Assembly: GCA_964016885.1 (NCBI GenBank)
Contig: OZ024740.1
Span: 331,824,001 to 331,888,000, forward strand
Direction of reading: 5' to 3'
Length of the DNA stretch: 64,000 nucleotides
Origin: Eledone cirrhosa
Taxonomy: Eukaryota
Under the pieces are notes generated by a model, which ran no database searches, had not been told where the DNA came from, and saw only the letters and a list, made by a program, of their open reading frames with translations. Position numbers and translations under genes: made by a program. Positions 45,131 to 47,092 of this stretch are shown piece after piece; the first letter of the stretch is position 1; every line of letters starts with the position of its first letter.

Positions 45131-45905
45131 CATGACCTATGACATCTATAGGCACACCAAGTGAGGGGAGGGGTGATAAATAAATACCACTCCTCGGCTG
45201 CTACCAAAGGAAACAGTGTTCCAGAGAAAATATGTTTTCCACAGAGTAGACAGCACTAAAAACACTCATGGACCAGTTGTTGGTGTTAGGCTGACTGGTG
45301 GATCAAGCTAATCACTTAAACATTGAGGCTAATGAATAATTATTGCATGCCATTAACAGGAATCTAGTATTATATTTACATGAATTCAGTTTGCAGTGAA
45401 GCATTATTTCTCCTATTAATATTATATTTAAAAAGACAAGGTCCGAGTGGCTGTATTAAATTGGATAGTGATTATATTTACCACCCAACACATTGAGCTT
45501 GGAGAAAATTAACAAGGTGTTTGCAGCAATGTACCATAATATAAAATCAAGTTTTCAGAAATGCTATATTTATACTAATTATAAACTAAATATTCTTTTG
45601 AGTTGTCTCAATTCCTATTTATAATAGCAAGAATCACATGCATAGTTTAACGTTTAGCTGTTTCTAAATATCATTAATATGCCACAAATGAAAATTGTTT
45701 AATCACAAACTGAACATGCTATTAAGTCCTGCTGAGGGAAAAGGTTACATGTCAATGCACAGTAGTTATCCCTCCAATTTGTGGAGTACATTGAACTTAG
45801 TGATCCAATGACATGAGCATCACTAATTAACTCACACACATGCACACACGTGTTTGCATACACCCACACACAAAAACACACACACAGACACATATATATC
45901 TATAT

Positions 45906-45967
<62 letters not shown>

Positions 45968-46036
45968 TATGAAGAGAGAAGAAACATTTAGATATAATTA
46001 GTAATAAAATGTATCATACCTAAACTGCTCCTAGAT

Positions 46037-46126
46037 TCCTCGACTACGTAGTTTCGTGGCATAGACACAAACAATACATCATAAAGATATAGAGTCCCTG
46101 CGAGGTCTGCCGACTTATCAAGAGGA
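46037..46126 (-). ncRNA. Type I hammerhead ribozyme, U3-A8 core, long stem II
   Basis: Minus strand: tcctc-TTGATAA-gtcggcagac...gtctatgccac-GAAA-ctacgtag-TC-gagga. Stem III is the palindrome ACTACGTAGT. Confidence 0.75.
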
Positions 46127-46631
46127 TACCTCATTTTACTAGTCTCAAGAACGCGTCTACACGACGTGAGAAAGAATCCCAAAAGGCGGAGGGGGAGATA
46201 GTCACGCGATATAACGGTCGAGAAACAGAGCTAAGCCTCTTATAACCACGAAGAAAATACCACGGAGGCGGAGGGGGTATTCATATCGAGGCCGCAGAAG
46301 AGGTGGTGAAGAAGGCTAGAAGTATGAGTAATGGAAGCTTTCCAGTTGTCCCCACACTTCAAAGATTGCTCGACCAGAGGGAGTTATTAACAATATATTT
46401 AGAAACACACAGATACATGCGGACACACACATATATACATGAATGCATCCGCACCCAACTGTGAGTTAAGGGTGCCAACTTCACCGATGTTGCTCAATGA
46501 ATGACCGGGACAGACCAATTCAGTTGAACCAGACTGAACCAGTATCAGAGTTAAAAATACATTATGAAGAGAGAAGAAACATTTAGATATAATTAGTAAT
46601 AAAATGTATCATACCTAAACTGCTCCTAAAT

Positions 46632-46721
46632 TCCTCGACTACGTAGTTTCGTGGCATAAACAAAAACAATATATCGTAAAGATATAGAGTCCCTGCGAGG
46701 TCTGCCGACTTATCAAGAGGA
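46632..46721 (-). ncRNA. Type I hammerhead ribozyme, U3-A8 core, long stem II (second copy)
   Basis: Same motif 595 bp away. Substitutions between the two motifs fall in the distal stem II region, and the core is unchanged. Confidence 0.75.
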
Positions 46722-46760
46722 TACCTCATTTTACTAGTCTCAAGAACGCGTCTACACGAC

Positions 46761-46813
<53 letters not shown>

Positions 46814-47092
46814 TGTATGTATGTATCTATGTATCTATGTATATATTGATTTGACACCATTCATTATCAGGTATCTATACAAGATGTCTGAGTTTGTATG
46901 GCATGCCTGCCATTGTTTGTCTTCCTATTTAGTAGCCCAAACGCTCATCACGTTAACCAGCACGAGCTATGCTTATTCCCGCTTCCATATAAAATACATC
47001 AGATAATTAAAATAAATCATTATTTAAGATATTCACTCTTTTTAACATTTAGAATTTGTGTGAGTCGACTGCAAGTGGTCTGTATTATTTCG

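What the first reader, a model, noticed from the sequence alone, without database searches (positions are those of the whole stretch)
45962..46762. Unrelated 595-bp unit with terminally redundant U3-A8 hammerheads and a ~59-nt stem II domain
Seen: about 200 bp of direct terminal redundancy, each copy containing tcctc-TTGATAA-[long stem II]-GAAA-ctacgtag-TC-gagga on the minus strand. The predicted cleavage sites (46637 and 46042) are 595 nt apart. There is no ORF, and (TA)n lies on both sides. No similarity to the 321-bp family is visible outside the core. Inference: a second HHR family that also uses U3-A8. Its palindromic stem III could allow dimeric cleavage between the two tandem motifs, as reported for PLE HHRs (Cervera & de la Pena 2014; Lunse et al. 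2017).
Basis: partly seen in the sequence, partly recalled or inferred. Interest (0 to 1): 0.75.

Follow-up and report, generated by a model that had tools for sequence, protein, structure and literature searches.

The report
Variant-core hammerhead retrozyme, 595-base unit
This is one young copy of an abundant, protein-free jumping repeat of a known kind (an animal "retrozyme"), whose 595-base unit carries a predicted self-cutting hammerhead RNA with a rare but already published base-pair swap in its core, and whose insertion scars suggest it is likely copied from an RNA circle by Penelope-type enzymes.

Summary
Window 45962-46762 (minus strand) holds 1.35 units of a 595-bp repeat, with two hammerhead (HHR) motifs whose C17 sites (46637, 46042) lie 595 nt apart. 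It has no ORF and (TA)n on both sides.

The unit is not unique. One junction 21-mer occurs 2,002 times in the own genome and an internal 21-mer 4,908 times. Copies are 97-100% identical, and older subfamilies exist (540 pattern hits).

Across subfamilies, helices I, II and III keep pairing (90.8% of cells, against 34-53% for slid controls). Four pairs changed on both sides. Helix III stays a perfect 10-nt palindrome in three versions, which fits only a two-molecule (dimeric) hammerhead. Cutting itself is untested, and Rfam models do not detect the motif.

Insertions carry the Penelope-like footprint. All 3' ends sit in (TA)n, 5' ends vary, units join seamlessly, and 19 of 40 insertions are head-to-head pairs. 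Every pair (19 of 19) joins one arm ending at unit position ~80 to one ending at ~244-262. That suggests both DNA ends prime on one RNA molecule.

Verdict: a new member of a known kind (animal non-LTR retrozyme with a U3-A8 Penelope-type HHR). This scan noted the same family before on other DNA of this genome. No autonomous partner was found, and expression could not be checked.

The parts
45962..46762 (-). Whole insertion: 1.35 units of the 595-bp retrozyme (unit positions 470-595, 1-595, 1-80)
   Evidence: blastn of a family unit against the window; direct repeat
46637..46762 (-). 5'-truncated first unit (unit positions 470-595), ending with hammerhead 1
46042..46636 (-). One complete unit from G1.1 (46636) to C17 (46042): the predicted monomer released by double cleavage. 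It folds far better than shuffles (a near-identical copy: -181.2 vs -144.1 +/- 6.3 kcal/mol, z -5.9)
45962..46041 (-). Terminal partial unit (positions 1-80), ending at the family's main fixed 3' end (...CATAATGTAT|(AT)n)
46632..46721 (-). Hammerhead 1 (type I, U3-A8 core): helix I UCCUC/GAGGA, core UUGAUAA, 59-nt helix II domain, GAAA, helix III, predicted cut after C17 = 46637. It has one private change (ACG for ATG) against the family's commonest form
46037..46126 (-). Hammerhead 2, predicted cut after C17 = 46042. It carries three private substitutions clustered in distal helix II
46651..46709 (-). Helix II domain of hammerhead 1: 6-bp base with a bulged C, an internal loop, then 7-bp and 6-bp helices
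46638..46647 (-). Helix III palindrome ACUACGUAGU of hammerhead 1 (hammerhead 2: 46043-46052)
46385..46393 (-). Unit positions 244-252 (AAAUAUAUUGUUAAUA region): the family's second, fuzzier 3'-end site. It is read through in this copy
45925..45961 (.). (TA)n target microsatellite abutting the 3' end of the insertion
46763..46846 (.). (TA)n target microsatellite abutting the 5'-truncated end

Best explanation
The 801-bp feature is one recent insertion of a non-coding, non-autonomous retroelement of the animal retrozyme kind, and its RNA is predicted to cut itself at a U3-A8 type I hammerhead.

Shown here:
- A 595-bp unit with thousands of near-identical dispersed copies.
- A hammerhead fold kept by compensatory changes.
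- Fixed 3' ends in (TA)n, variable 5' ends, seamless multi-unit arms and head-to-head pairs.

Inferred:
- Transcripts holding two or more units pair their palindromic helix III strands into a double hammerhead and are cut after C17.
- The 595-nt monomer is likely closed into a circle by a host RNA ligase.
- A Penelope-like element's endonuclease and reverse transcriptase would nick (TA)n and prime on AU-rich sites of the RNA (position 80, and with the other DNA end position ~250).
- The enzyme would then copy round the junction one to four times. That recreates the two flanking hammerheads needed for the next cycle.
For: Family size:
- The unit gave 1,509 first-look candidates; 162 matches were scored, at 97-100% identity.
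- The junction 21-mer of site 80 with (TA)n occurs 2,002 times, and the read-through 21-mer 4,908 times. Reversed-pattern controls gave 0.

Hammerhead fold:
- All core positions fit the hammerhead consensus except the paired swap C3-G8 to U3-A8. That swap is a published natural covariant in Penelope-like-element HHRs (PMC4209133, passages).
- Older subfamilies gave 540 hits to a pattern, with control 0.
- Alignment A1 has 59 rows. 90.8% of cells pair, against 34.2-52.7% when partners are slid. There are 26 double-change cells against 8.5 +/- 2.6 in shuffles (0 of 500 reach it).
- Helix I: pair 2.2-1.2 reads UA 44 / CG 6 / UG 5, and pair 2.4-1.4 reads CG 43 / UA 6 / UG 5.
- Helix III central pairs read AU 47 / GC 10 and CG 52 / UA 4. 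This gives three palindromes: ACUACGUAGU, ACUGCGCAGU and ACUGUACAGU.
- The two central pairs cannot form in a one-molecule hairpin.
- Cofolding two copies gives the domain-swapped double hammerhead at -61.7 kcal/mol, against 2 x -24.0 for monomers.
- The monomer RNA is highly structured, z = -5.9.

Mobility (40 distinct insertions, 59 arms):
- 3' ends fall at positions 76-82 in 38 arms and 244-262 in 21 arms.
- 5' ends are spread over positions 1-561.
- Every outer end abuts (TA)n.
- 19 of 19 head-to-head pairs join one site-80 arm to one site-250 arm. If sites were chosen independently, this would be expected with probability about 4e-7.
- Of 21 single arms, 19 end at site 80.
- The same two sites are seen in 6 of 6 readable pairs of old subfamilies.
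- Private variants are shared by all units and both arms of an insertion; for example, all 8 hammerheads of the C11 locus share one.
- 5' truncation, partial tandems, an inverted 5'-truncated neighbour and a (TA)n bias are the published Penelope-like footprint (PMC8557442, passages).
Against: - No Rfam hammerhead model matches, even at E <= 10.
- The isolated 96-nt motif folds no better than shuffles (z -1.36 and -0.88).
- Helix I has only 5 bp in this family, and I found no loop-loop contact.
- In one search the number of pairs with a double change (4) and of extra pair types (26) did not exceed the shuffles (472 and 465 of 500 shuffles reach them). The four events are inherited by subfamilies, not many independent ones.
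- All aligned rows were found with patterns that fix the core, so core conservation itself is not tested.
- Expression, cleavage ends and circles could not be examined.
- 5' ends are not enriched at the cleavage site: (TA)n joined to position 1 gave 2 hits, against 6 for a control at position 589/590.
- Units within an insertion are only modestly more alike (0.36% and 0.24% differences) than units of different insertions (0.59%).
- No autonomous partner shares sequence with the unit among 30 PLE loci.
Confidence: 0.75

Rival explanations
1. The element is mobilised as described, but its template is an uncleaved linear multimer transcribed from a tandem copy, not a circle. The two fixed priming sites reflect how the Penelope-like enzyme holds one stretch of RNA (positions 80-250) between the two DNA ends.
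For: Penelope-like elements themselves make partial tandems and inverted copies without any known circle (PMC8557442, passages). The heterotypic rule would also follow from a fixed protein-RNA geometry. Units within an insertion are not identical: 0.36% differences.
Against: Arms reach 4.1 units and still share private variants in every unit and in both arms. This needs a source whose units were already homogenised. Multimers hold several copies of each site, so homotypic pairs would be expected, yet 0 of 19 were seen.
Confidence: 0.2
2. The hammerhead-like motif does not cut. The conserved hairpins and the palindrome serve only as recognition or priming structures of a SINE-like Penelope-dependent repeat.
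For: There is no Rfam match. No expression or cleavage data exist. There is no excess of 5' ends at the predicted cut. Published minimal Penelope hammerheads cleave poorly in vitro (PMC4209133, passages). Other blocks of the unit are as conserved as the motif.
Against: All 13 core positions fit, with the one known compensated swap. G10.1-C11.1 is kept in 58 of 59 rows. Helix I covaries at two pairs, although it joins strands 85 nt apart that flank exactly the core. Chance expectation for the strict motif is 0.02 per window.
Confidence: 0.1
3. It is an ordinary satellite or minisatellite that grew locally by unequal crossing-over, with dispersed copies arising from segmental duplication.
For: The units are in tandem. 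The 2026 preprint discusses local amplification for retrozyme arrays (bioRxiv 10.64898/2026.07.22.740005, Discussion passage).
Against: 40 of 40 insertions have different flanks. All have a fixed 3' end joined to (TA)n and a different 5' truncation point, and 19 carry an inverted arm. There are 2,002 identical 3' junctions genome-wide.
Confidence: 0.03

Closest known systems
Animal non-LTR retrozymes (Cervera and de la Pena 2020, PMC7229834; Li, Clavereau and Pollet 2026, bioRxiv 10.64898/2026.07.22.740005)
   Same: Short tandem units, each with a type I hammerhead. No ORF, LTR or PBS. Low GC (42%). Strongly structured RNA. Dispersed in many copies. Proposed spread through self-cleaved, ligated RNA circles and a Penelope-like reverse transcriptase.
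   Different: The unit of 595 nt is above the 170-400 nt of the 2020 paper, but inside the 51-972 bp range of the 2026 preprint. The core is U3-A8. Helix II is a 59-nt branched domain, not 4 bp plus a loop. The papers' passages that I read describe neither (TA)n targeting nor two fixed 3' ends used one each in head-to-head pairs. A full-text search for 'retrozyme' with 'twin priming' found 0 papers.
Penelope-like-element hammerheads (min-HHR and variants; Cervera and de la Pena 2014, PMC4209133)
   Same: U3-A8 in place of C3-G8 (reported there for Schistosoma mansoni Cercyon relatives, about 1,300 hits). A 6-bp helix II base with a bulged nucleotide on its 5' side. G10.1-C11.1. A short helix I. 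A small palindromic helix III read as a sign of dimeric action.
   Different: Here the motif sits in a 0.6-kb ORF-less tandem unit, not in the pseudo-LTR of a coding element. Helix II carries a long extension. Helix III is a full 10-nt palindrome.
Double hammerhead of newt/salamander satellite 2 and axolotl retrozymes (Forster et al. 1988, cited in PMC4209133; PMC7229834)
   Same: A weak one-molecule helix III with a palindromic tetraloop, which becomes a long helix when two motifs pair. In axolotl, dimeric constructs cleave far better than monomers.
   Different: No sequence similarity. Canonical C3-G8 core. Units of 330-350 bp. Activity is shown there and only predicted here.
Insertion architecture of Penelope-like elements, including Naiads (Craig et al. 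2021, PMC8557442)
   Same: Frequent 5' truncation, partial tandems, an inverted 5'-truncated copy at the 5' side, and a preference for (TA)n microsatellites.
   Different: Those are coding elements of 3-4 kb. I found no sequence shared between this unit and 30 GIY-YIG loci of the same genome.

Membership tests
Hammerhead ribozyme, type I | Conserved core: C3 U4 G5 A6 N7 G8 A9, G12 A13 A14, A15.1-U16.1, H17 | tested here: met
   The core reads UUGAUAA / GAA / A...U / C. The only departure is the paired swap U3-A8, a published natural covariant (PMC4209133). Conservation across subfamilies is not informative, because the search patterns fixed these bases.
Hammerhead ribozyme, type I | Three helices around the core, kept by compensatory change | tested here: met
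   90.8% of cells pair, against 34-53% for slid controls. Double changes occur at two helix I pairs and two helix III pairs. CG/UG/UA series occur at two distal helix II pairs. The count of covarying pairs is not above the shuffles (4 against a mean of 5.5).
Hammerhead ribozyme, type I | Match to curated Rfam hammerhead models | tested here: not met
   No hammerhead family is listed at gathering score for the window or at E <= 10 for 45800-46900. The likely causes are the U3/A8 letters and the 59-nt helix II.
Hammerhead ribozyme, type I | Site-specific self-cleavage after H17 | not testable with these tools
   The read-based route was not available. The genomic proxy, 5' ends at G1.1, gave no excess.
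Hammerhead ribozyme, type I | Loop-loop tertiary contact between helices I and II | not tested
   Helix I is open and 5 bp long. I looked for no tertiary contact beyond the secondary structure.
Animal non-LTR retrozyme | Tandem units, each with a type I hammerhead; no ORF or LTR; low GC | tested here: met
   frames of 80 aa or less, GC 42%.
Animal non-LTR retrozyme | Expressed as unit-length linear and circular RNA | not testable with these tools
Animal non-LTR retrozyme | Dispersed copies made by retrotransposition | tested here: met
   40 of 40 insertions have distinct flanks, fixed 3' ends and variable 5' ends. There are 2,002 identical 3' junctions.
Penelope-like-element dependant (non-autonomous PLE derivative) | PLE insertion footprint: 5' truncation, partial tandem, inverted 5'-truncated copy, microsatellite target | tested here: met
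   compared with passages of PMC8557442.
Penelope-like-element dependant (non-autonomous PLE derivative) | Sequence shared with the pseudo-LTR or 3' end of an autonomous PLE of the same genome | tested here: inconclusive
   30 of more than 10,596 GIY-YIG candidates were examined, each with 1.5 kb on either side. None shares sequence with the unit, apart from one unrelated nearby insertion at L116.

The most novel reading that the evidence does not exclude
Each insertion is made from a single monomeric RNA circle. Both 3' ends of one Penelope-cut (TA)n break prime on the same circle, at its two different AU-rich sites (position 80 and about 250). Each reverse transcriptase then runs round the circle up to four times. 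The strict one-of-each rule (19 of 19 pairs here, 6 of 6 in old subfamilies) would be the first sequence-level footprint of rolling-circle reverse transcription and two-ended priming for animal retrozymes.
Probability: 0.4. Interest if true: 0.65.

Novelty: new member of a known kind. Interest (0 to 1): 0.4.

Why it matters
Retrozymes are the animal counterpart of viroid-like RNA circles, and how they get back into DNA has only been proposed, not shown. This family is young (0.6% divergence), large, and has sharply defined ends. It therefore offers clean material to test three things:
- whether a U3-A8 hammerhead with a long helix II cuts;
- whether it must act as a dimer;
- whether a Penelope-type enzyme copies an RNA circle from two start sites.

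On its own, the copy in this window is an ordinary member of that family.

Tried and rejected
1. Rfam, at gathering score and at E <= 10: no hammerhead hit. Only microRNA-like noise appeared on the (TA)n tracts.

2. I suspected that the first hammerhead of each insertion was a distinct 'type A'. This was an artefact of using the window's own mutated unit as query. The window's 46042 motif has three private changes.

3. I looked for run-off at the ribozyme cut. Three arms seemed to start at position 1, but inspection left only one (L013). The other two continue to about position 574. Genome-wide, (TA)n joined to position 1 gave 2 hits against 6 for a control. There is no enrichment.

4. Partner search. 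30 GIY-YIG loci were scanned by blastn and by my hammerhead descriptor and showed no homology. A weak likeness between a PLE 3' end and site 80 (TTCTTCCTCATAAT...) was not picked up by blastn, so I dropped it.

5. A pattern for the same helix III with a shorter helix II found only deletion derivatives and relatives of the family, no coding element.

6. The conservation profile along the unit is confounded by how the copies were chosen. It also shows several blocks as conserved as the motif.

7. Divergence within and between insertions differs only modestly.

9. One look-up of the scan's earlier notes failed on a word limit and was not repeated.

Full report
**Observation**

Reading the minus strand of 45700-47000 and the repeat finder confirm a 211-nt direct repeat, 45957-46167 and 46552-46762, at 97% identity and spacing 595. 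Each copy reads tcctc-TTGATAA-[59 nt]-GAAA-ctacgtag-TC|gagga. C17 lies at 46637 and 46042.

Mapped on a family unit, the insertion covers unit positions 470-595, then 1-595, then 1-80. This is exactly 45962-46762. (TA)n abuts both ends. No frame longer than 80 aa is open in four joined units on either strand. GC is 42%. The 321-bp family elsewhere in the window shares only chance words of 18 nt or less.

The motif is not a chance pattern. My descriptor gives 9 hits in the window against 0.38 +/- 0.75 in 50 shuffles and 0 in the reversed sequence. The strict form gives 3 against 0.02.

**A large young family**

The own genome is 3.0 Gb, and the window lies at C1:331824001-331888000. The unit there gave 1,509 first-look candidates, of which 162 matches were scored at 97-100% identity.

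The 21-mer that joins unit position 80 to (TA)n occurs 2,002 times. The 21-mer that reads through position 80 occurs 4,908 times. Both controls gave 0. Spacings of 588, 591 and 595 nt are seen in these lists.

Earlier notes of this scan describe the same family on other DNA of this genome, as '591 nt apart' (e1-9590809).

**Is it a hammerhead?**

Against the reading:
- Rfam does not see it, either at gathering score or at E <= 10.
- The isolated 96-nt motif folds no better than shuffles, z -1.36 and -0.88.

For the reading:
- Every core position fits a type I hammerhead except C3-G8, which is replaced by U3-A8.
- This swap is in print for Penelope-like-element hammerheads of Schistosoma (PMC4209133, passages). 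A full-text search for 'hammerhead' with 'U3-A8' returned only that paper.
- The same paper describes a 6-bp helix II with a bulged base and a small palindromic helix III. Both are present here.

Copies of the young family are too alike to test pairing, so I looked for older relatives.
- A pattern fixing the core and helix III found diverged subfamilies.
- A second pattern found 540 places, with control 0.
- I hand-picked 40 of the 100 places listed. I aligned them with 17 motifs from earlier loci and the two motifs of the window, giving alignment A1 with 59 rows.

On my hammerhead structure:
- 90.8% of cells pair, against 34.2-52.7% when partners are slid by 1-3 columns.
- 26 cells carry a change on both sides, against 8.5 +/- 2.6 in shuffles (0 of 500 reach it).
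- The double changes sit at helix I pairs 2.2-1.2 (UA 44, CG 6, UG 5) and 2.4-1.4 (CG 43, UA 6, UG 5).
- They also sit at the two central helix III pairs (AU 47, GC 10; CG 52, UA 4).
- Two distal helix II pairs run through CG, UG and UA.

Against this:
- The number of pairs with a double change (4) and of extra pair types (26) is not above the shuffles.
- The changes are inherited by subfamilies, so they stand for about four events.
- The core letters were fixed by the search patterns, so their conservation is not evidence.

**Dimeric action**

Helix III is ACUACGUAGU, ACUGCGCAGU or ACUGUACAGU in different subfamilies. One copy reads CUGUGCAG, a wobble intermediate. All three main forms are perfect palindromes.

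The two pairs that covary are the innermost ones. They cannot form in a one-molecule hairpin, but they do form when two motifs pair. Cofolding two copies predicts exactly the domain-swapped double hammerhead: a 10-bp intermolecular helix III with helix I formed in trans. Its energy is -61.7 kcal/mol, against 2 x -24.0 for two monomers.

Dimeric action through palindromic helix III is established for newt and axolotl motifs and proposed for Penelope-like hammerheads (PMC7229834 and PMC4209133, passages).

**How it moves**

I mapped 40 distinct insertions, which make 59 arms. 23 came from the loci and 17 more.

- 3' ends fall in two classes. 38 arms end at positions 76-82, nearly all at 80 (GTAT|). 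21 arms end at 244-262.
- Every outer end abuts (TA)n.
- 5' ends spread from position 1 to 561.
- Units join seamlessly, and arms reach 4.1 units.
- Nineteen insertions are head-to-head pairs. All 19 join a site-80 arm to a site-250 arm. With independent choice at the observed frequencies this has probability about 4e-7.
- Of 21 single arms, 19 use site 80.
- Old subfamilies show the same two sites, and 6 of 6 readable pairs are likewise mixed.
- Private variants are shared by all units and by both arms of an insertion.
- Overall, however, units within an insertion differ by 0.36% (same arm) and 0.24% (across arms), against 0.59% between insertions. This is a modest gap.

5' truncation, partial tandems, an inverted 5'-truncated neighbour and (TA)n preference are the published marks of Penelope-like elements (PMC8557442, passages).

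The monomer RNA is strongly structured: -181.2 kcal/mol against -144.1 +/- 6.3 for shuffles, z -5.9. In that fold, both 3'-end sites lie just after long hairpins.

My reading is target-primed reverse transcription in which both DNA ends of a (TA)n break prime on one continuous RNA, most simply a monomer circle. A linear multimer held in a fixed geometry is not excluded.

**What failed or stayed open**

- 5' ends are not enriched at G1.1: 2 hits against 6 for a control.
- The genome holds more than 10,596 GIY-YIG candidates. Thirty loci examined share nothing with the unit, except one unrelated nearby insertion.
- One C-terminal-endonuclease family among them also ends in (TA)n and carries a possible U3-A8 mini-hammerhead. 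I could not link it to this unit.

**Comparison and verdict**

The element matches animal non-LTR retrozymes in every feature I could test. It also matches Penelope-type hammerheads in core swap, helix II base and palindromic helix III.

Its size lies inside the 51-972 bp reported in 2026 (bioRxiv 10.64898/2026.07.22.740005; Results read, part 1 of 2). Supplements of that preprint are closed and might list similar families.

Two things are not described in the passages I read: the long helix II domain, and the one-of-each rule for two fixed 3' ends. 'Retrozyme' with 'twin priming' returns no paper.

It is a new member of a known kind.

Noticed in passing
window 36587 (-), 36727 (+), 37048 (+): The 321-bp family has U3-A8 hammerheads: GGCT-TTGATAA-GTACGAATCAGTAC-GAAA-CATAGCTCTG-TC-AGCT. 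One motif lies on the opposite strand, which suggests the same head-to-head insertion style.
   Followed up: partly
window 58462 (+): A canonical C3-G8 type I hammerhead: TAGGCT-CTGATGA-ACACCAACAGTGT-GAAA-CAGATCTG-TC-AGCTTA. Its helix III is palindromic. Its helix I resembles that of the U3-A8 321-bp family, so the two may be core-swapped relatives.
   Followed up: no
L102, L111, L115, L092, L110 (own genome): A Penelope-like family whose ORF ends about 10 aa after the GIY-YIG domain. It has a 3' untranslated region of about 650 nt ending ...CTCCCTGTTTTC|(AT)n. About 200 nt before that end lies a possible U3-A8 mini-hammerhead: TTGATAA-T-GCAT-ATAA-ATGC-T-GAAA-CCGG-TA. The motif was read by eye only.
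   Followed up: partly
window 46056-46075 (-): The second hammerhead of this copy carries three private substitutions within about 15 nt of distal helix II. The family-wide divergence is about 0.6%. This may be a mutation cluster or a copying error.
   Followed up: no
L013:1501 (own genome): One arm of a head-to-head pair starts exactly at G1.1, the predicted cleavage product end. It is the only such case among 59 arms.
   Followed up: yes
L149:~1779-1800 and L156:~640-680 (own genome): Two arms have their inner 5' end near unit position 574, inside the 3' strand of the helix II hairpin. This may be a pause or switch point of the reverse transcriptase.
   Followed up: no
own genome, whole: More than 10,596 first-look candidates for the GIY-YIG domain. 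Penelope-like elements are therefore very abundant in this genome.
   Followed up: no
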